Origin: Alphaproteobacteria bacterium
Lineage (GTDB): Bacteria > Pseudomonadota > Alphaproteobacteria > UBA828
Direction: 5' to 3'
Assembly (NCBI GenBank): GCA_963422645.2
Contig: CAXXVO010000017.1
Span: forward strand, 234,553-298,552
DNA length: 64,000 nt
Both the position numbers and the translations under genes were made by a program. The notes beneath the pieces are model-generated. The model had not been told where the DNA came from. It did no database searches and saw only the letters and a program-made list of their open reading frames with translations. Positions 45,623 through 53,189 of the stretch are shown here, one piece after another (position 1 is the first letter of the stretch; every line of letters begins with the position of its first letter).

Positions 45623-46156
45623 TTAAAGCTCGTTCTTGTAGAAACGGCCGTCCTTCATGATGACCGGAATGTGGCGGCCCTGCTCCTGAAGCAGTCCGAG
45701 ATCGCTGAGGGGGTCACCGTCCACCACCAGGATGTCCGCCAGCGCCCCCGGCGCGATGGTGCCGAGCTCGCCTGAGCGCTGCGTCAGCGCGGCGTTGATC
45801 GAGGTTGCGGAGCGCAGCACGTCCACAGGTGCAAGCACCTCGCTCCGGATCAGGAACTCCTGGCTCTGCCGGTCCTGCAAGGGCCCGAGCAGGTCGGTGC
45901 CAAAGCCCATGGGCACGCCGGCGGCCTGGCAAACCTCGAGCGAGCGCAGCCCGTCGTTGCCGAGATCCTGAAGCTTGTCGGCGAATACCTTGCGCAGACC
46001 GAACTCGGCGCCTGACTCCAGCATCGCGAATAGCGTAACCAGCGTCGGCACGACGAAGGCGCCGGCCTCTGCGGCGGCCTCCGCCGCTTCTGCGTCGATC
46101 TGGGTGCCGTGCTCGATCGAGCGCACGCCGAGCGCGGCGCAGCGGCGCACCGCGCT
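45623..46156 (-). pseudogene. 3' half of interrupted metal-dependent amidohydrolase
   Basis: VRSIEHG, GFGTDL, GTIAPGALADILVVDGDPL motifs; joins in frame to 50696-51396 once the insert and one TSD are removed. Confidence 0.92.
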
Positions 46157-46164
46157 TGTAGGGG

Positions 46165-46283
46165 GACGAAAGTCATTGCGAATCCGGAAGATGCCGGGAA
46201 GAAGGCGGAAGAAGGCGGACGGTCAAGGGGTTGGCGGCGTTTCCGGGGTCTGGCGGGCCGGACGAAAGTCTTTGCGAATCCGG
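46165..46283 (+). repeat. Left-end putative transposase-binding sites L1 and L2
   Basis: GACGAAAGTC(A/T)TTGCGAATCCGG at 46165-46187 and 46261-46283, 73 bp apart. Confidence 0.85.
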
Positions 46284-46426
46284 CCCGGAAAGGGCCGTGA
46301 ATTGGCTGGAAACGGTGATTTTCGGGGCGTTTCAGGGGTGCTGAAAGGCCTGTAAATCGGGGCGGTTCCGGGGGTGCGGATTCGCCGGTAAATCGGGGTG
46401 CGGCGCGGTGCTTCGCCTCGCCCGGT

Positions 46427-47365
46427 CTACGATGCCGGCGTTGTCCCCGCGCCGGCCTCCTTCCCTTCGAGATCGGTGCGCCGCGGGTCGCGTGCGATCT
46501 CTTCATCGGAGAACGGCTTTCGCCCGGGGTTCTCGACCTCCCAGTTTTCCATCCATGGCAGCGACTGGCATCCGCAGTTGATCGTCTCGGCGGCGGGTCC
46601 GGCGGGATCGCGGGGGTACATGAGCGAAGCGCCGCCGACGTCGAAGGGCCTGGCGGCTTCCCTGGTCTGTCCGTCGACGGCGTCGTGGGCGATGCGGCTT
46701 CTGAGCTTTCCGGAGCGTCGCCACTGCTTCCTCAGCCCCGGCAGGATCCCGGCGGCCTGCTCCATGCGCTGCTGTCCGGCCATGGAGTATGCGCGGCCGA
46801 GCTCGGTCCGCACGATTGTCAGGGCGCGGGACCTGCCGCCGGTCTTGAGGATGGCGGCGACGCGTCCGGTGGTCTCGCCGACGGGGACCGAGCCGGCCAT
46901 GGCGAGGCCGAGTTCGGTATTGACGCGCTCGGCAAGCGTCGTGGAGACGTCCTTCATCCTGTCGGTGAGGAAGGATCGCATGGCGAGGAGCTGGCGGGTG
47001 TCGACCTCGGGCAGGACGGCGGCGATGCGGAAGTCGGGGGCATCGAGGCGCATGGCGGCGTCGACGGGGGCGTCCATGGTATCGATGCCGGCGTCCCAGG
47101 CGCGGGTTGCGCCCTCGGCCATGGCCCGCCCGGCGTCTGCGCCGAGGCTGTCGAGGGCGTCCCGGACGGAGGCCTGGAGGGATGGCAGCGCCCACGCCTG
47201 GTAATCGGAGGGCGCGCCGGCGAGGGTGGCCCGGATGTCGCGCTCGGCGCGCCCGAGGATGCGGCCGACCTCGGCGGCGGTGTCCTTCTGGATGCGGGGC
47301 AGGGCGCGGGCGCGGCGGGATCGCTCGCCCTTGAGCCTGCGCTCGCGCTGACGGTCGGTAGCCAC
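46427..47365 (-). CDS. Phage minor head/morphogenesis protein (Mu gpF / SPP1 gp7-like)
   Basis: RALTIVRTELGRAY, KQW...R.AH...DGQ...F...LMYPRDP...ETINCGC. Confidence 0.88.
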   Translation of the reverse strand: MATDRQRERRLKGERSRRARALPRIQKDTAAEVGRILGRAERDIRATLAGAPSDYQAWALPSLQASVRDALDSLGADAGRAMAEGATRAWDAGIDTMDAPVDAAMRLDAPDFRIAAVLPEVDTRQLLAMRSFLTDRMKDVSTTLAERVNTELGLAMAGSVPVGETTGRVAAILKTGGRSRALTIVRTELGRAYSMAGQQRMEQAAGILPGLRKQWRRSGKLRSRIAHDAVDGQTREAARPFDVGGASLMYPRDPAGPAAETINCGCQSLPWMENWEVENPGRKPFSDEEIARDPRRTDLEGKEAGAGTTPAS

Positions 47366-47368
47366 GTG

Positions 47369-48799
47369 CTACGCCTCGCCGTCGTCGTCGTCCTCGTCCT
47401 GCGGGGGCTCGCGGAAGGCGTCTTCTTCGGCCCGTCCGGCGGCGTCTTCGCGCGCCGCCTCGAGTTCGGCGTCGGCGTCGATCTCGACGCCGAGGCGCCC
47501 GGCGACGGCGGCGATGACGCGGAGCGCGGTGGCGTCCGAGAGCAGGCCGCGCTCGATGGCGAGCGCCGCGGCGCCTGCGGTCTGGGCGAGCGCGGCGGCG
47601 TGTCGGGAGGCGTCGGCGACCACCATCTCGGGCCATTCGACGGAGACGGCGAGGGCGGGGTCTGCGGGATCGGGCCATGATGCGCCGGAGGGGTCGAGCC
47701 TGCGGGCGATGGCGTAGTCTGCGGCCCGGCGCAGGATCTCGGTCCACAGCCTCTGGCGCATCTTGAGGGTCTTGAAGGCGGGATCGCCCATCTCTGCGGC
47801 GGTTGCGCGGTTGACGTCGCCGCCGCCGCCGAACCAGTGCTCGGGCATGCCGGCGCCGCCGAGCAGGTGGTTGCGGAAGAGGCGGGATGTTGCGTCGAGG
47901 TCGCGGCCGCCGAGGTCCGGGGCGAGGGGCTGCCAGGTCTCGCTCTCGTTGTGGACGCGGACGGTTCCGGGCGTGGGCGCCGTGGCCCTTGCGGCGCGCT
48001 CCTCGACCTCTTCCTGACTGGCGCCGGTCATGGTGACGTCCCAGACGAAGGCGCGGAGGAAGTGGGCGCGGTCGATCTCTCCGAAGAGGTGTCGCTCGTA
48101 TCCGTCGAGCCAGTCGATGGCGGCGAGCAGGTCGGAGCGTCCGCGGGATGCGCCGGGCCTGGCGTTGGCGCGGAAGTAGAGGATGTCGCCCGAGGTCATG
48201 GTCTCGCGGATGGCGCGGGCGGCGGGCGCGAGGGCGGTCTCGGGTCCGCCGATGGCGGTGCGGTAGCGCCGGGCTTCGCCCCTGCGGTCCTTCTTCGTCA
48301 CGATGCCGATGGGGCGGGACGCGTTGTCGGGGTCCATGACCACGGTCTCGACGGCGTCGGGGTCGAGCCACGCCATGCGGACGTGACCGGAGGCGGGGTC
48401 TGCGAAGACGGGCCATGCGGTCTCGCCGGCGAGCGCGAGGTCGCGCATGAGCTCGGGGAGGCGGAGCGGCATGTCGGTGACGGGATCGCGCCACCATGCG
48501 TCGAGCCATTCCTGGGCGTCCGGATCGGGGACGCGCACGCGCACGCCGTCGGCGAGGAGGAAGGCGATGGGGAGTTCGACCAGTTGCCGGGCGAGGAGGT
48601 TGGTCTCCCAGAGATGGGCGGCGAGCTTCCTCATCCTGCTCTGGGTCAGCGGCGAGAGGTCGCGGCGTCCGTCTCCGGTGAGCGGGCGCCACTGGTCCTC
48701 GTCCCTGTCGATTCCCTTCCCCGCCGCCTCCCGGAGGGCGGTAGCGTGCGGCGGGGCGCCGCCGAGCATGCGGATGAGGGCGGAGCGGATCACCGCCAC
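47369..48799 (-). CDS. Probable phage portal protein
   Basis: 476 aa between terminase and gpF-like genes; RGRSDL, GMPEHWFGGGGDVNRATA and WPE are portal-like motifs. Confidence 0.75.
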   Translation of the reverse strand: MAVIRSALIRMLGGAPPHATALREAAGKGIDRDEDQWRPLTGDGRRDLSPLTQSRMRKLAAHLWETNLLARQLVELPIAFLLADGVRVRVPDPDAQEWLDAWWRDPVTDMPLRLPELMRDLALAGETAWPVFADPASGHVRMAWLDPDAVETVVMDPDNASRPIGIVTKKDRRGEARRYRTAIGGPETALAPAARAIRETMTSGDILYFRANARPGASRGRSDLLAAIDWLDGYERHLFGEIDRAHFLRAFVWDVTMTGASQEEVEERAARATAPTPGTVRVHNESETWQPLAPDLGGRDLDATSRLFRNHLLGGAGMPEHWFGGGGDVNRATAAEMGDPAFKTLKMRQRLWTEILRRAADYAIARRLDPSGASWPDPADPALAVSVEWPEMVVADASRHAAALAQTAGAAALAIERGLLSDATALRVIAAVAGRLGVEIDADAELEAAREDAAGRAEEDAFREPPQDEDDDDGEA

Positions 48800-49137
48800 A
48801 TCCCCTCCCCGGGCCGCCCGAACATGGTGAGGGGCTGGCGCCCGGCAAGGCGGGAGGGTGTGAAGGCGTCGCGGGGATCGCCCTGCGCCCAGGCGCCGGC
48901 CGGGGGCGGGCGGCTTTCGGCGGCAGCCGCGCAGGCCAGCGCTGCGGCCCAGAAGCGGTCGGCATGGCCGTCGGTCTCGCCGTCGGCGGCGAGGCGGGGG
49001 CTGCCGGTGGGTCCGACGGTCTTGCGCACGGCGTGCAGGTCGGCGCGGAGCACCGGGTCGCCGGAGGGCACGCGGATGGTGCGGTCTTCGAAGCGCTCCT
49101 TCAGCGCGGTGGCGAGGTCGATACCTCCGGCAAGCAC
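48790..49137 (-). pseudogene. C-terminal fragment of a Mu-like terminase large subunit
   Basis: DLATALKERFEDRTIRVP...LRADLHAVRK...GHADRFWAAALA; ATPase domain absent. Confidence 0.8.
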
Positions 49138-49341
49138 TACGTCACCTTCGAGGTCGCCTCGAGCAGGCTATTCTCGTCGCCGAAGCGGTATTTCGACAGA
49201 GTCCTATCCACTATTCACTATAAAGGATGGCAGCCGCCGTTCTCCGGCGCGGTCTACGTCCGCGCTAGATTCACGACCCTGCCGAGGGACGCAGGATCAC
49301 GAGGCCCCTGGTCGGTCACCTACACCCATCGGGCGTCCTAG
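49120..49341 (+). pseudogene. C-terminal fragment of a putative tail/FN3-like protein
   Basis: Open frame ...KHYVTFEVASS...VYVRARF...GPWS...* with no plausible start of its own; lower GC; abuts the terminase fragment back to back. Confidence 0.4.
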
Positions 49342-49355
49342 GAGATTCGACGGCG

Positions 49356-49979
49356 GTGCCCGGCGTGAGAGACCCCCGCGAATCAACCCCGGTCGAGCCC
49401 GGAGAGGGTTCCACCCCCCCCATTCGCGTCGTCCGCGCAGCCATCGGCCCTCGAGCAATGGCCGAGGTCGAGCGAGCCGTCAACGGGCTCGCGCTCGCGC
49501 GCCGGGGCCCCGGCGCGGACGACTGCTACGAGGCATGGCTGCCCGACGGGATGCTCCCGGCAGACTGCACCGACGCCCTGGACGCCCTCGCCCGCAACTA
49601 CGCCCGCGAGGTGCTGAACGCACGCGCGGACACGCCCTCGCCCGCCGTCTGCAACTGTTACTTCGCAGGACAGGCCTGCCTCTGGCACGTCGACCAGTAC
49701 GCAGGGCGGGGAGTTCCCGACACCCTCGACCGGACCGTCTCCGCAAGCCTCATCGTCGAACGCGCCGCAGCCGGCGGCGACATGGTCTTCCAGGACCCGG
49801 GCCGGAAACGCCGCCCCGTACGGATCGACCCGCCGCCGGGATCGCTCGTCCTCTTCCCCGCAGACTGGTGGCACAGGGTCGCACCCGCCACCGCCGGCAT
49901 CCGCCGCTCGCTCGTGCGATGGTGGGCGCAGTCGAACGGAGAGAGGTTCTCGTCCCTCGCCCGGCCCGACGGAGGATGA
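49356..49979 (+). CDS. 2OG-Fe(II) oxygenase (PKHD/prolyl-hydroxylase-like)
   Basis: WHVD (HxD), RTVSASL, GGDMVF, GSLVLFP and WHRVAP...GIRRSLV.W (distal His and Arg). Confidence 0.82.
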   Translation: MPGVRDPRESTPVEPGEGSTPPIRVVRAAIGPRAMAEVERAVNGLALARRGPGADDCYEAWLPDGMLPADCTDALDALARNYAREVLNARADTPSPAVCNCYFAGQACLWHVDQYAGRGVPDTLDRTVSASLIVERAAAGGDMVFQDPGRKRRPVRIDPPPGSLVLFPADWWHRVAPATAGIRRSLVRWWAQSNGERFSSLARPDGG

Positions 49980-49983
49980 CACG

Positions 49984-50526
49984 GTGATCGACATCCAGGA
50001 CGCGATCCGCCGGCTCATGGCGCACGACGGCCTGCGTCCGCCCCACGGCTTCCTGCCGGGCTCCTTCCCCGGCGGCATCGACACGATGTTCGACGAGGCG
50101 ACATGGAAGGCCTACGGCTGGAACCCGATCCCCGGCCTGCCGGACTACGGCCCCGACCCGGACGCCAGCCCCAAGCCGGCATGGGCCATGATCGCCGAAG
50201 CGGGCGAGCGCGCCGCCGCCGAAGACCTCCGGCAAGAAAGGGCGCAAGGGCTCGACCGGGAGGCAACCCGCCGCATCCGGAAGGCCTACGGGGCAAGGAG
50301 CTGGGAGCACGAGGCCAGACGGCGGCTGCGCGGCGCCGCCACCGAGGAGCAGGACGCCGAACGCGACCGCCTGCGCCGGCTCTGCCGCGCGCTCCGCAAG
50401 CGCATCGAAACCATGGACGCGGGCGCGCTCGAGCGCTTCGACGCAGCCGACGACAGACACTGGCGCCCGCCCGAAGCCGGGCCCGCCCAGCCCCCCGCGC
50501 CCGAGGCGGAGGAGAAGGCGGAATAG
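49984..50526 (+). CDS. Hypothetical phage protein, possibly tail-fibre-assembly-like
   Basis: GGAGG RBS; 180 aa with PKPAW motif, charged helices and a D...W end. Confidence 0.6.
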   Translation: MIDIQDAIRRLMAHDGLRPPHGFLPGSFPGGIDTMFDEATWKAYGWNPIPGLPDYGPDPDASPKPAWAMIAEAGERAAAEDLRQERAQGLDREATRRIRKAYGARSWEHEARRRLRGAATEEQDAERDRLRRLCRALRKRIETMDAGALERFDAADDRHWRPPEAGPAQPPAPEAEEKAE

Positions 50527-50645
50527 AACCCTTGCAGGGGCCGTGCACACCGAATTCCGCGCCCCTGAACGGCCCGTGCATGGCCGATGCAGAGGCCGTT
50601 TTTCCAGCCCGAATCAGCCCCGAAAATCAGCCTGTTTTCCAGGCC

Positions 50646-50689
50646 ATTCGCAAAGACTTCTGGCCGCGATTCGCAAAGACTTCTGGCCG
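50646..50689 (-). repeat. Right-end putative transposase-binding sites R2 and R1
   Basis: ATTCGCAAAGACTTCTGGCCG at 50646-50666 and 50669-50689; core is the reverse complement of the left-end AAGTCTTTGCGAAT. Confidence 0.87.
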
Positions 50690-50695
50690 GCTACA

Positions 50696-51396
50696 GCGCT
50701 CGCCGTGTGCGCATGGGCCATCACATAGGTGCGCCGGGTCGCCGCCTCCTCCACGCCGACCCTGATTTCCTCGTCGGAGTACTGGTCCATCCAGAGGGGA
50801 TCGGTCGGCGAGAGCACGCCGCCCGACACCATCATCTTGATCTGGTGCGCTCCCTTGCGAAGCTCCTCCCGCACCACCTGGCGCACCGCATCGACGCCGT
50901 CGGCCACCTGCGAGACGATCCCGTGATAGCCGGCGCAGCCGCAGGGCTCGAAGCGGGTCTGGTTGCGCATGTCGCCGTGGCCGCCGGTCTGGCTGATGGC
51001 CCGGCCGGAGAAGAGCACCCTCGAGCCCGCGATCAAGCCTTGCTCCACGGCGAGCGCCAGCCCCAGGTCGGCGCCGCCCGCATCGCGCACCGTGGTGAAG
51101 CCCCGCTTCAGCGAGCTTTCGAGGCTGAGCCTTGCGTGCTGGTAGATCAGGGACGCCGGCATGTCGTCGAGCGACGGGATGTTGAGGTCAACGAGGAGAG
51201 CGTGGAAATGGGCATCGATCAGGCCCGGCATCAGCGTTCGCCCGCCGCAGGCTACGCGTTCCGCATCGGCCGGTGCGCGGACCGCGCCGTCGGCGACCTC
51301 CTTGATCCGGCCCTCCTCGACCACCACGGCCGCGTTCTCGCGTGGCTCGGCGGAGACCCCGTCGAACACTCTGCATCCCTCGAAGATGATCGTCAC
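50696..51396 (-). pseudogene. 5' half of interrupted metal-dependent amidohydrolase
   Basis: TLMPGLIDAHFH, GFTTVRDAGG, SQTGGHGD, IKMMVSGGV and VMAHAHTASA, followed by the element end. Confidence 0.92.
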
Positions 51397-51428
51397 GGCG
51401 CCATTCTCCCCTTTGCTCAATCCGCCCT

Positions 51429-53189
51429 TTACCAGGCGAGCCCGTAGGCCGGTCGCCGCGGGTCCGCCCCGCCCGAGAGCGTGCCCCCTTCGCCCTCCTT
51501 GACCAGCACGCACATGGCGCCGGCGGGCCAAGCCCACTCCGGCCACCACTCGACCCCGTGGCCCCAGGCGGCGAGTGTGTCGCCGGCTGCCTCCGAGATG
51601 CGCCCCTCCAGCATCAGCTTGCCCGGATGGTACTCGTGCGGCTCGAAGGAATTGGGGAAGCTCATGGTCGCAAACCTTGGCGCTTCCACCGCGGCCTGCG
51701 GGTTCATGCCGTAGACCACGATGTTCACGAAGGTCTGGAGCATCGCCTGGATCTGAACGTCGCCGCCGGGCGTGCCGAAGGGCATGACGAACCCGTCTTC
51801 GCCCATGGCGAGCGCCGGGTTTGGCGTGAGCCGCGGCCGCTTGCCGGGCGCCACGCTCGAGGCGTGCGCGGGATCGGCCCAGGACTGCGCGCCGCGCGAA
51901 GAGGCGCAAAGCCCGGTGCCCGGAATTACCGGCGAATCGAATGAGATATCGCTCGGCGTCGCCGAGAAGACGTTGCCTTCGTCATCGATGACGCAGACGT
52001 AGGAGGTGTCGTGCGCGGCCTCCACGGGCCCCGTTGAGGCCGCTCCCTGCGCGCAGGCGAGCGTCGCCAGTCCTTGCGCCGGGTCGCCCGCCGGCGGCAT
52101 CTCGAGCCATGCCTCGCCGGGCCGGATGAGGGCGCGGCGGCTGGCGGCGTAGTCGTCGGAGAGGAGCGCCGCCGTCGGCACGTCGACGAAGCGCGGGTCG
52201 CCGATCCAGCGCTCGCGGTCGGCAAAAGCTAATTTCAGCGCCTCCGCCATCATGTGCAGCGCTTCCGGGCTGTTGTGGCCGTGCGCGGCCAGCGCCTTCG
52301 TGTCCAGCAGGCGAAGCGCCTGAAGCAGCGTCGGCCCCTGGCACCAGGGGCCGCAGGCGTAAACGTCGATGCCCTCGATCGTGACCCGCTCGGGCGGCTC
52401 CACCGCCACCCTGAAGGAGGCGAGGTCGTCGGCCGTGAGCAGGCCGCCCTTCTCCCGGTGGTGGTTCACGATGGCGGCGGCGATGTCGCCCCGGTAGAAG
52501 GCCGCGCGGGCGGCATCGAGCCCGGCCCCGCGGTCGTCGCCGGCAGCGCGCTCCTCGTCCGCCATGTACTGGAGCGAGCGCCCGAGGTCGGCCTGCACAA
52601 AGAGATCGCCCACGGCAGGCGGCCGGCCGCCGGGCAGATAGATTTCGGCGTTCGACGGCCAGCGGTTGTACGCGTCGGCCTTCTTGGCGATGACGCTCGC
52701 CATCAGTGGGTACATCACGAAGCCGTCGCGTGCGAGCCGGATCGCGGCCTCTGCCACCTCGCCGAAGGTCATGGTGCCGTGGCGTTCCAGCGCGGTGATC
52801 CAGGCGTCCGGCGCGCTCGGCACGACTGTGCGCAGCGGGCCCACCGGGATGTGACCGTCGTGCTCGCGCACGAAGAGATCGGGCGTAACCGCCGCCGGCC
52901 AGGTGCCGAGCCCGCTAATGGTCTCCACCTGCCCGGTCTTCGCGCTGTAGAGGATGATCGGCGCAACGCCCGCGACGTTGACGAGATCACTGTGCACGAC
53001 ACCCAAAGCGATGCCCGCGGCGACGCCCGCATCGATGGCGTTGCCGCCCGCCTCCAGGATCGCGAAGCCTGCCTGTGCGGCGAGGTAGTGTCCGGCCACG
53101 ATCGCGTGCCGGTGGCCGCGGATCACCGGCCTGAGCGCGTCGATCGCCTCCGGGTCGAACAGCGCGTACTCGCTCCTGCGTTCGCTCAT
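51429..53189 (-). CDS. ggt: Gamma-glutamyltransferase family protein
   Basis: GGNAIDAGVA, LKLAFADR, DTSY (nucleophile Thr), PGKRP and FGTPGGD motifs. Confidence 0.9.
   Translation of the reverse strand: MSERRSEYALFDPEAIDALRPVIRGHRHAIVAGHYLAAQAGFAILEAGGNAIDAGVAAGIALGVVHSDLVNVAGVAPIILYSAKTGQVETISGLGTWPAAVTPDLFVREHDGHIPVGPLRTVVPSAPDAWITALERHGTMTFGEVAEAAIRLARDGFVMYPLMASVIAKKADAYNRWPSNAEIYLPGGRPPAVGDLFVQADLGRSLQYMADEERAAGDDRGAGLDAARAAFYRGDIAAAIVNHHREKGGLLTADDLASFRVAVEPPERVTIEGIDVYACGPWCQGPTLLQALRLLDTKALAAHGHNSPEALHMMAEALKLAFADRERWIGDPRFVDVPTAALLSDDYAASRRALIRPGEAWLEMPPAGDPAQGLATLACAQGAASTGPVEAAHDTSYVCVIDDEGNVFSATPSDISFDSPVIPGTGLCASSRGAQSWADPAHASSVAPGKRPRLTPNPALAMGEDGFVMPFGTPGGDVQIQAMLQTFVNIVVYGMNPQAAVEAPRFATMSFPNSFEPHEYHPGKLMLEGRISEAAGDTLAAWGHGVEWWPEWAWPAGAMCVLVKEGEGGTLSGGADPRRPAYGLAW

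What the first reader, a model, noticed from the sequence alone, without database searches (positions are those of the whole stretch)
46152..50700. Transposase-less 4.5-kb Mu-like mini-element with intact ends inserted in a host gene
Seen: TGTAG...CTACA termini, a perfect 5-bp TSD (GCGCT) and paired end repeats. The cargo is gpF-like, portal, terminase stub, tail-like stub, 2OG-Fe(II) oxygenase and a hypothetical gene, with no transposase, capsid or repressor. Known: TG..CA ends, a 5-bp TSD and multiple subterminal transposase sites characterise Mu-type transposition. Inference: the interrupted gene's halves are undecayed while the phage has lost most of its genome. The short form may therefore move as a natural mini-Mu or satellite mobilised in trans, and its retained portal/gpF could interact with helper head assembly.
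Basis: partly seen in the sequence, partly recalled or inferred. Interest (0 to 1): 0.85.

Follow-up and report, generated by a model that had tools for sequence, protein, structure and literature searches.

The report
Gutted Mu-like prophage, one of ~43
The 4.5-kb insert is a real, precisely inserted but gutted copy of a Mu-like transposable phage. It is one of about 43 such transposase-less remnants scattered through this genome, which is unusual, but nothing shows that this short form itself is copied or acts as a satellite.

Summary
Window 46157-50695 (4539 bp) has TGTAG...CTACA tips, a perfect GCGCT duplication and two Mu-style binding repeats at each end. It splits an amidohydrolase gene whose halves rejoin in frame.

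- **Empty site:** two genus relatives and contigs of two other sequencing runs of the same species label carry the uninterrupted site. The insertion is therefore recent and strain-polymorphic.
- **Cargo:** gpF-like gene, portal, a C-terminal terminase stub, a 2OG-Fe(II) oxygenase and one unknown gene. No tail stub was found.
- **Family:** the genome holds 86 such tips (about 43 elements), against 0-1 in each of 20 other species of the genus. Twenty pairs have their own perfect 5-bp duplications.
- **Private deletions:** every arm has a different inner breakpoint and no deletion junction occurs at two loci. Many junctions carry IS21 or a 5.2-kb transposon, or remnants of its end.
- **No helper:** no cognate MuA/MuB gene is in the assembly. 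A 43.6-kb viral contig shows the full-length layout, with the transposase in the middle.

Best reading: a defective relic whose deletion is private to this locus, not a propagating mini-Mu or satellite. Mobilisation in trans, or deletion during transposition, is not excluded.

The parts
46152..46156 (.). left copy of the 5-bp target-site duplication GCGCT
   Evidence: present once in relatives G005 and G002 and in the empty-site contigs of runs X4 and X5
46157..46290 (+). left end: TGTAG tip plus two transposase-site-like repeats (46169-46183, 46265-46279), 96 bp apart
   Evidence: same end (99-100% identical over 120 bp) at 24 places in the genome
46427..47365 (-). gpF-like head-morphogenesis gene, 312 aa, open
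   Evidence: 45% identical to the Phage_Mu_F protein (39 bits) of viral contig G035
47369..48799 (-). portal gene, 476 aa, open
   Evidence: phrog_10963 7e-58; 53% identity to Microcystis phage Mae-JY22 and to four IMG/VR contigs
48790..49121 (-). C-terminal stub of the large terminase gene, cut by the deletion
   Evidence: Terminase_6C profile positions 96-152 only; the gene is complete (461 aa) in the C6 copy
49121..49123 (.). internal deletion junction: left arm ends at 49121, one extra T at 49122, right arm starts at 49123; no microhomology
   Evidence: alignment to longer left arms (C13, C6) and longer right arms (C8, C15); unique in the genome
49356..49979 (+). 2OG-Fe(II) oxygenase, 207 aa; accessory gene near the right end
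   Evidence: PF13640 4e-10; phrog_61 9e-14
49984..50526 (+). 180-aa protein of unknown function
   Evidence: no Pfam or PHROG match
50640..50695 (-). right end: CTACA tip plus two adjacent repeats (50646-50660, 50669-50683)
   Evidence: 41 right-type tips in the genome
50696..50700 (.). right copy of the duplication GCGCT
45623..46156 (-). C-terminal half of the interrupted amidohydrolase gene
   Evidence: PF01979 positions 166-340; in frame with the other half after in-silico excision
50696..51909 (-). N-terminal half of the interrupted amidohydrolase gene
   Evidence: PF01979 positions 1-160; G005 orthologue 93% identical in a 651-aa open frame

Best explanation
The element is a dead, internally deleted remnant of a roughly 40-kb Mu-like transposable phage.

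Shown. A phage genome entered the amidohydrolase gene by Mu-type DDE transposition, giving TG..CA tips and a 5-bp duplication. The event is recent enough to be polymorphic among strains.

Inferred. The whole middle was then lost in one illegitimate joining event that left a 1-nt filler. The lost part includes the early region with the transposase genes, lysis genes, most of the terminase gene, and the capsid and tail genes. What remains is a 2965-bp left arm and a 1573-bp right arm.

The deletion is private to this locus. It most likely happened in place after a longer genome had inserted. The same fate befell about 43 related insertions in this genome, many with visible help from IS21 and a 5.2-kb transposon. 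The remnant keeps ends that look competent, but it has no transposase and no cognate one is in the genome. It is therefore immobile unless a related complete phage enters the cell.
For: Insertion is real and precise.
- Tips, duplication and four end repeats.
- The host frame is restored by in-silico excision.
- The empty site with a single GCGCT is in G005 (96% nucleotide identity) and G002.
- Of 4 runs laid, 2 (X4, X5) have a contig joining 46151 to 50696 with 0-2 mismatches in the flanks. X1 has a contig across the right tip and flank.

Mu-type ancestry.
- The longest left arm (C6) carries GemA, an SLT lysozyme, Gp27, terminase, portal and gpF in Mu order.
- The right arms carry a J-like tail gene.
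- Viral contig G035 (43.6 kb) is collinear and has a 592-aa phrog_310 transposase in its middle.

The deletion is private.
- 24 left arms of this type end at 22 different points; the only repeat is position 198, the IS21 hot spot.
- Among 86 arms, no deletion junction 40-mer recurs.
- The junction 28-mer is absent from the metagenome and genome collections.

Deletion in place is common in this genome.
- Whole IS21 or the 5.2-kb transposon sits at the arm-to-arm joint in at least 8 of the 20 paired elements.
- 10-bp and 204-bp remnants of that transposon's end lie in two otherwise clean joints.
- 26 of 87 IS21 segments and 13 of 44 transposon segments abut family DNA, which is 2.9% of the genome.
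- An element in G022 likewise joins a capsid gene to a truncated portal gene.

No helper.
- PF02914 and PF09299 give no match.
- No tblastn match to the A/B proteins of Mae-JY22 or G035.
- phrog_310 hits only the 5.2-kb transposon's 536-aa transposase and IS. That transposase is not similar to G035's A.

The donor is not a resident copy.
- The nearest left arms are 98.6-99.1% identical.
- Portal differences are mostly synonymous: 15-16 synonymous against 6-7 non-synonymous, dN/dS 0.12-0.16.
Against: - No strain or relative was seen with a longer prophage at this site, only the empty site. Insertion of an already short form is therefore not excluded.
- The joint carries no IS remnant, so the deletion mechanism here is unknown.
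- Both tips are kept with striking regularity: about 45 left-type against 41 right-type tips. Arms are short, with a median near 0.9 kb against a 43.6-kb relative. Random decay in place does not obviously predict either; a process that needs both ends would.
- The deletion joint itself was not bridged by any listed short-read contig. It rests on the assembly.
Confidence: 0.6

Rival explanations
1. Natural mini-Mu: the 4.5-kb form, already deleted, was moved into this gene in trans. The transposase would come from a complete related phage, superinfecting or since lost.
For: - Both ends and their repeats are intact.
- The insertion is strain-polymorphic with identical flanks.
- Five or six small 'clean' elements of 0.8-5 kb have perfect duplications.
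- All four combinations of left and right arm types occur with intact duplications.
- Left and right tip counts are nearly equal.
Against: - The junction is unique in the genome and in the scanned collections.
- If short forms were copied by replicative transposition, identical junctions should recur. None does among 86 arms.
- There is no cognate transposase in the assembly.
- No resident copy is close enough to be the donor.
Confidence: 0.2
2. Dead on arrival: the deletion arose during the transposition event itself. For example, replication from both ends of a full-length master stalled and the broken ends were joined. Each new copy would then be born with its own internal deletion.
For: - Every copy has a private breakpoint while keeping both tips.
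- Three left arms are 99.9-100% identical over 905 bp yet end at 974, 1454 and 1615.
- The window joint has a 1-nt filler and no homology, as end-joining gives.
- Arms are short.
Against: - No master copy is present.
- Many joints are explained instead by IS21 or the 5.2-kb transposon.
- Copies differ by up to 6.5%, with an excess of synonymous change, so they do not descend from one resident master.
- As far as I recall, the mechanism is not established for Mu.
Confidence: 0.15
3. Phage satellite: the retained portal and gpF genes are kept because they interact with a helper's head assembly.
For: - Both genes are open. The portal shows dN/dS of 0.12-0.16 between copies.
Against: - The gene set is not conserved. 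Only 4 of 24 left arms of this type reach the end of the portal gene and 11 of 24 the end of gpF.
- There is no integrase, repressor, replication or packaging-redirection gene.
- The terminase gene is cut.
- The selection signal fits history before insertion.
Confidence: 0.03
4. Assembly artefact: the 4.5-kb form is a chimeric join of two repeat arms.
For: - Both arms are repeats (4 and 7 copies). No listed short-read contig bridges 49121-49123.
Against: - The assembly resolves about 70 identical 2.5-kb IS21 copies inside contigs, so reads were long.
- In run X1 the right tip is joined to the right flank and the left flank contig stops at the tip, as expected for an occupied site.
- Both flanks belong to one gene and carry a perfect duplication.
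Confidence: 0.02

Closest known systems
Bacteriophage Mu and laboratory mini-Mu (Mud) elements (recalled knowledge; reviewed in PMC3145075, seen as abstract in the listing)
   Same: - TG..CA tips and a 5-bp duplication.
- Several transposase-site repeats, spaced apart at one end and adjacent at the other.
- Head genes in the order Gp27, terminase, portal, gpF.
- Short derivatives that keep only the ends need MuA/MuB in trans.
   Different: - This one is natural, not engineered.
- No cognate transposase is in the cell.
- In this phage group the early and transposase region lies in the middle, and the terminase-portal-gpF block reads outward to one tip.
- The short form is not seen copied.
IMG/VR contig UViG_3300029651_000002 (43.6 kb, handle G035) and Microcystis phage Mae-JY22 (PP438414.1)
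   Same: - Portal 53% identical; gpF-like 43-45% identical.
- In G035 alone, GemA, Gp27, terminase and J-like tail proteins are collinear with the family.
- G035 gives the full-length layout and a phrog_310 transposase.
   Different: - These are distant relatives.
- The TGTAG tip pattern was not found in viral contigs.
- They are complete phages, not remnants.
Defective Mu-like prophages in bacterial genomes (for example in Neisseria, Haemophilus and Deinococcus; recalled, with the listings)
   Same: Mu-type prophage remnants that have lost functions and stay in the chromosome.
   Different: - As far as I recall, those genomes hold a few copies.
- Here there are about 43 remnants with both tips kept, against 0-1 tips in each of 20 congeners.
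Families of internally deleted DNA transposons (Ac/Ds, P elements, MITEs; recalled analogy)
   Same: Many copies keep both ends and have lost internal sequence, including the transposase.
   Different: - In those families identical deleted forms multiply.
- Here no deleted form occurs twice.

Membership tests
Mu-like transposable phage (derivative of) | TG...CA termini | tested here: met
   TGTAG at 46157 and CTACA at 50695. The same tips occur 86 times in the genome.
Mu-like transposable phage (derivative of) | 5-bp target-site duplication with a matching empty site | tested here: met
   GCGCT on both sides. It is single in G005 and G002 and in contigs of runs X4 and X5. 20 pairs in the genome have perfect 5-bp duplications.
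Mu-like transposable phage (derivative of) | several subterminal transposase-binding repeats, arranged differently at the two ends | tested here: met
   Two inverted repeats per end, 96 bp apart at the left and adjacent at the right; 0.01 expected by chance. Binding itself was not testable.
Mu-like transposable phage (derivative of) | Mu-type morphogenesis genes in Mu order | tested here: met
   GemA, SLT lysozyme, Gp27, terminase, portal and gpF in the C6 copy. The window keeps the terminase stub, portal and gpF.
Mu-like transposable phage (derivative of) | MuA-type DDE transposase and MuB in the element | tested here: not met
   None in the window element. No cognate gene in the genome. Present in the complete relative G035.
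Mini-Mu / non-autonomous element mobilised in trans | the same deleted form at two or more loci with different duplications | tested here: not met
   The junction is unique and absent from the scanned collections.
Mini-Mu / non-autonomous element mobilised in trans | a helper with the same ends and a transposase in the same cell | tested here: not met
   No full-length copy. The longest elements are 22.7 kb and 12.1 kb and lack a transposase of the family.
Mini-Mu / non-autonomous element mobilised in trans | presence/absence polymorphism of the insertion | tested here: met
   Empty site in 2 of 4 runs laid; occupied in X1. This does not tell which form inserted.
Phage satellite | a conserved gene set of its own (integration, regulation, helper hijacking) | tested here: not met
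   Cargo is whatever the deletion left, and it differs in every copy. No regulator or integrase.

The most novel reading that the evidence does not exclude
A Mu-like phage lineage behaves in this species as a proliferating chromosomal transposon family that is still active, as the strain-polymorphic insertion suggests. Its copies are either born with private internal deletions during replicative transposition, or are tip-bearing minis moved one at a time in trans by incoming complete phages. Either way, the ~43 remnants would record a mode of phage-derived genome expansion not described for Mu-like phages in the three literature searches run here.
Probability: 0.2. Interest if true: 0.8.

Novelty: new variant of a known kind. 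Interest (0 to 1): 0.55.

Why it matters
Defective Mu-like prophages are known, and mini-Mu elements are a laboratory staple. A genome with about 43 Mu-type remnants is not an ordinary prophage load. All of them lack a transposase, nearly all keep both ends, and congeners have none or one tip.

This raises a concrete question: how can a phage that replicates by transposition leave so many insertions in surviving cells? It also gives a natural data set of more than 80 arm breakpoints and joints with which to study how such prophages are disarmed. That data set includes a strong association with two other mobile elements.

For the window element itself the message is sobering. It is a relic, and nothing shows that it works as a mini-Mu or a satellite.

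Tried and rejected
- **Helper search in the genome.** Pfam DDE_2 and Mu-transpos_C gave no match. rve hits were all IS or transposon genes. tblastn with the proteins of Mae-JY22 and of viral contig G035 found no A or B homologue. phrog_310 hit only the 5.2-kb transposon's transposase and IS.
- **The 5.2-kb transposon as helper.** I considered it and rejected it. Its ends (TGAGCG...CGCTCA) are unlike TGTAG ends. Its transposase is not similar to G035's A.
- **IS21 as the mover.** IstA carries a Mu-transpos_C_2 domain, but IS21's own ends are TGTCAA... and TGTTGTT.... Rejected.
- **Full-length relatives with the same tips.**
  - The tip pattern gave 5 places in two alphaproteobacterial MAGs. It gave none in metagenome or viral contigs.
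  - Those MAGs and G022 lack a full-length phrog_310 gene.
  - The two facing tips 29.5 kb apart in G031 are both left-type with unmatched flanks, so they do not bound one element.
  - The ends of G035 could not be defined.
- **G022 copies.** They turned out to be remnants too.
- **Expression.** No RNA holder was listed.
- **The deletion joint in reads.** It was not bridged by any listed contig. 264 pieces were not shown and contigs break at repeats, so this says nothing either way.
- **Literature.** Three searches (listings and abstracts only) and one term search in PMC8705779 (one passage) found no description of natural families of internally deleted Mu-like elements. Supplements were not consulted.
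- **My gene caller.** The simple GC3-based caller mis-called some frames, such as a 331-aa shadow ORF. It also missed the window's own gene. Counts from it are therefore lower bounds.
Full report
**The object**

Reading the window confirms the description. TGTAG begins at 46157, CTACA ends at 50695, and GCGCT flanks both sides (46152-46156 and 50696-50700). The element proper is 4539 bp.

A 15-base repeat (GAAGTCTTTGCGAAT, up to 2 mismatches) occurs only four times in the 64-kb window. Two lie at each end, in inverted orientation, against 0.01 expected by chance. At the left end the two sites are 96 bp apart; at the right end they are adjacent. By recalled knowledge this is the asymmetry of Mu attL and attR.

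The genes are:
- a 312-aa gpF-like head-morphogenesis protein;
- a 476-aa portal;
- an ORF holding only the last part of the terminase nuclease domain;
- a 2OG-Fe(II) oxygenase;
- a 180-aa protein with no family match.

There is no transposase, capsid or repressor. The 'tail-like stub' is not there. Aligned to longer right arms elsewhere, the window's right arm begins 216 bp after the stop of a 1412-aa J-like tail gene.

**The target**

The flanks are the two halves of an amidohydrolase gene (Pfam PF01979 positions 1-160 and 166-340). Removing the element and one GCGCT in a script gives a single 604-aa open frame containing both halves.

The search in 21 genomes matched in 15. The closest, G005 (same genus), has a 93%-identical protein in a 651-aa open frame. 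At the DNA level the two window flanks overlap by exactly five bases on the G005 and G002 sequences, so these are empty sites with one GCGCT.

I laid contigs of four public runs on the region.
- X4 and X5 each have a contig that joins 46151 to 50696: it skips 4544 bases with 5 shared. The flanks show 2 and 0 mismatches.
- X1 has a contig running from inside the right tip into the flank.
- X6 shows neither.

The insertion is therefore real, precise and polymorphic among samples that carry the same species label.

**It is one of many**

BLAST of the element against its own genome gave dozens of hits. A tip pattern finds 86 tips in this genome: 39 forward and 47 reverse. It finds 0 or 1 in each of 20 other species of the genus, and only 2 of those 20 have one match.

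My regex found 83 tips:
- 23 left tips like the window's ('LA');
- 18 of a variant whose arm is 72-76% identical ('LB');
- 41 right tips;
- 1 odd tip.

The pattern search adds three left-type variants with TGTGG.

Twenty tip pairs have identical 5-bp flanks. All are distinct except GCGGC, which occurs twice, and they bound elements of 893 bp to 22.7 kb. When the element is excised in silico, 9 of these 20 restore a long open frame. That script's thresholds missed the window's own case, which one search shows directly.

Of the 43 unpaired tips, five left/right pairs match by duplication across contigs or distant sites. The mean in 300 random draws is 1.0 and the maximum 5. This points to rearrangements between copies.

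**What the family was**

The longest left arm (C6, 9.5 kb) reads toward the tip: GemA, an HNH-like protein, an SLT lysozyme, Gp27, a 461-aa terminase, portal, gpF. Right arms read toward their tip in one of two ways:
- a J-like central tail fibre, then the oxygenase and the 180-aa gene;
- in the ~90%-identical right-end variant, a 298-aa gene.

A 43.6-kb IMG/VR contig (G035) has the same layout in full:
- capsid and tail genes run out to one end;
- regulators lie in the middle;
- then come a 341-aa gene, a 592-aa phrog_310 transposase (4e-80) and a 420-aa gene;
- then early genes, GemA, Gp27, terminase, portal (53% identical) and a Phage_Mu_F protein (45%) at the other end.

The tool reports G035 as 95% complete. 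The window element thus keeps only the two outermost pieces of such a genome.

**No helper**

In this 99.6%-complete assembly the following all failed to find a cognate transposase:
- Pfam DDE_2 and Mu-transpos_C;
- tblastn with the A and B proteins of Mae-JY22 and of G035.

The phrog_310 profile finds G035's gene at 1e-82. In this genome it hits only the 536/537-aa transposase of a separate 5.2-kb transposon, plus IS. That transposon has different ends, and its transposase is not detectably similar to G035's.

GemA occurs only in the C6 copy. The two MAGs with TGTAG tips and G022 also lack a full-length phrog_310 gene.

**Is the short form copied?**

No evidence says so.
- The 24 LA arms end at 55, 187, 198 (three times), 217, 224, 361, 530, 570, 727, 930, 974, 1346, 1454, 1532, 1615, 1827, 1837, 2036, 2965 (the window), 4024, 4158 and 9470 bases from the tip. 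The LB and right arms are equally scattered.
- Among 86 arms, the only truly shared joint is left-arm position 198 next to IS21. That is an IS21 hot spot, used three times in two orientations.
- The window's joint is unique in the genome and absent from the metagenome and genome collections.

**How deletions arise here**

The genome is full of other mobile DNA:
- an IS21-family element of 2551 bp, with about 70 copies that are 100% identical;
- a 5192-bp transposon with TGAGCG...CGCTCA ends and 5-bp duplications;
- IS4-like and IS1595 elements.

Of 87 IS21 segments, 26 abut family DNA, as do 13 of 44 segments of the transposon. Family DNA is only 2.9% of the genome.

In at least 8 of the 20 paired elements the left and right arms are separated only by these elements. 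Two 'clean' joints contain a 10-bp or a 204-bp remnant of the transposon's end. One contains a 51-70-bp patch copied from deeper in the left arm, and one shows 8-10 bp of microhomology.

The window joint has a single extra T and no homology. An element in G022 joins a capsid gene directly to a portal gene lacking its first 80 codons.

Loss of the lethal middle of the prophage in place therefore happens often. It also explains why the arms survive: in this phage group the early genes lie in the centre.

**History of the copies**

Left arms differ by 0-6.5% over 905 bp, and three are 99.9-100% identical yet end at different points.

Between the window's portal and the C9 and C13 copies there are 15-16 synonymous against 6-7 non-synonymous differences, giving dN/dS of 0.12-0.16. 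For gpF most pairs lie near 0.5. Ten of 11 gpF copies and 4 of 4 portal copies are open.

No resident copy is closer than about 99% to the window's left arm. The right arm is a mosaic: its last 768 bp are 100% identical to one copy, and it is 97.9% identical to the long arms.

I read this as copies derived from a diverse population of functional phages, not from one another by neutral copying. This is inference.

**Verdict**

- **Best reading (0.6).** A recently inserted Mu-type phage genome lost its centre. It left a private 4.5-kb remnant that cannot move unaided.
- **Still open.** The remnant may have arrived already short with a helper (0.2), or have been born deleted during transposition (0.15). 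Three things keep these alive: the near-equal counts of left and right tips, the short arms, and the fact that only the empty site, never a longer occupant, was seen.
- **Little or no support.** A satellite role (0.03) or a misassembly (0.02).

Three literature searches and one term search found no description of such a family (listings, abstracts and one passage only).

Noticed in passing
L010:699-3249 (G000:C9:570970-573520); also G000:C10:37027-39577 and G000:C19:136808 onward: A 2551-bp IS21-family element (IstA 517 aa, IstB 242 aa) has about 70 copies that are 100% identical. It inserted three times at position 198/199 of the left end, in two orientations. The target (CCTGTA|AATCGG) resembles the IS's own terminal sequence.
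   Followed up: partly
L011:3710-8901 (G000:C8:807700-812891): A 5192-bp transposon with TGAGCG...CGCTCA ends and 5-bp duplications. It encodes a 536-aa phrog_310-type (Mu-family) transposase, a 382-aa and a 205-aa protein without family, and a DUF3991-Toprim protein. About 10 full copies and many partial ones are 99.8-100% identical. Thirteen of 44 segments abut the phage-family DNA.
   Followed up: partly
whole genome G000: IS21 and the 5.2-kb transposon are about ten times enriched next to the Mu-like remnants: about 30% of segments lie against 2.9% of the genome. Whether this reflects target preference or tolerated insertion was not resolved.
   Followed up: partly
G000:C6:164266 with C5:244783; C13:47701 with C17:4848; C14:105180 with C15:297860; C14:131213 with C15:22446; C19:154904 with C14:63015: Left and right tips at distant places share the same 5-bp duplication: 5 matches against about 1 expected. 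This suggests inversions or translocations between copies, or contig breaks inside elements.
   Followed up: partly
L023:13208-19560 (G022:C7): A genome of another family in the same order carries a related remnant. A 768-aa capsid gene is joined to a portal gene lacking its first 80 codons, followed by gpF and a TGTA-type tip. This is another centre-deleted two-arm relic.
   Followed up: partly
window 47376 and 48914/50636 (contigs of runs X5 and X4): Other samples of the species show joints absent from this assembly. In X5 the 5.2-kb transposon's end is joined to a left arm at window position 47376. In X4 a possible joint links 48914 to 50636, with only 22 bases on one side. The mobile-element complement differs between strains.
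   Followed up: no
window 50020: Contigs representing the other right-arm copies lack 22 bases present here, inside the 180-aa gene. The window's copy is a distinct allele.
   Followed up: no
G000:C10:199536-200021, C13:74972-75454, C13:180324-180701, C7:18573-18872: Further Phage_Mu_Gp27 (DUF3486) matches lie outside the TGTAG family. They may be other Mu-type head modules or prophages; no transposase was seen near them in the rve list.
   Followed up: no
L033/L034 (G031, record OZ241868.1, 3031338 and 3060869): Two left-type TGTAG tips face each other 29.5 kb apart with unmatched flanks in an alphaproteobacterial MAG. The tip family thus exists outside this genus, but no complete phage was found there.
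   Followed up: partly
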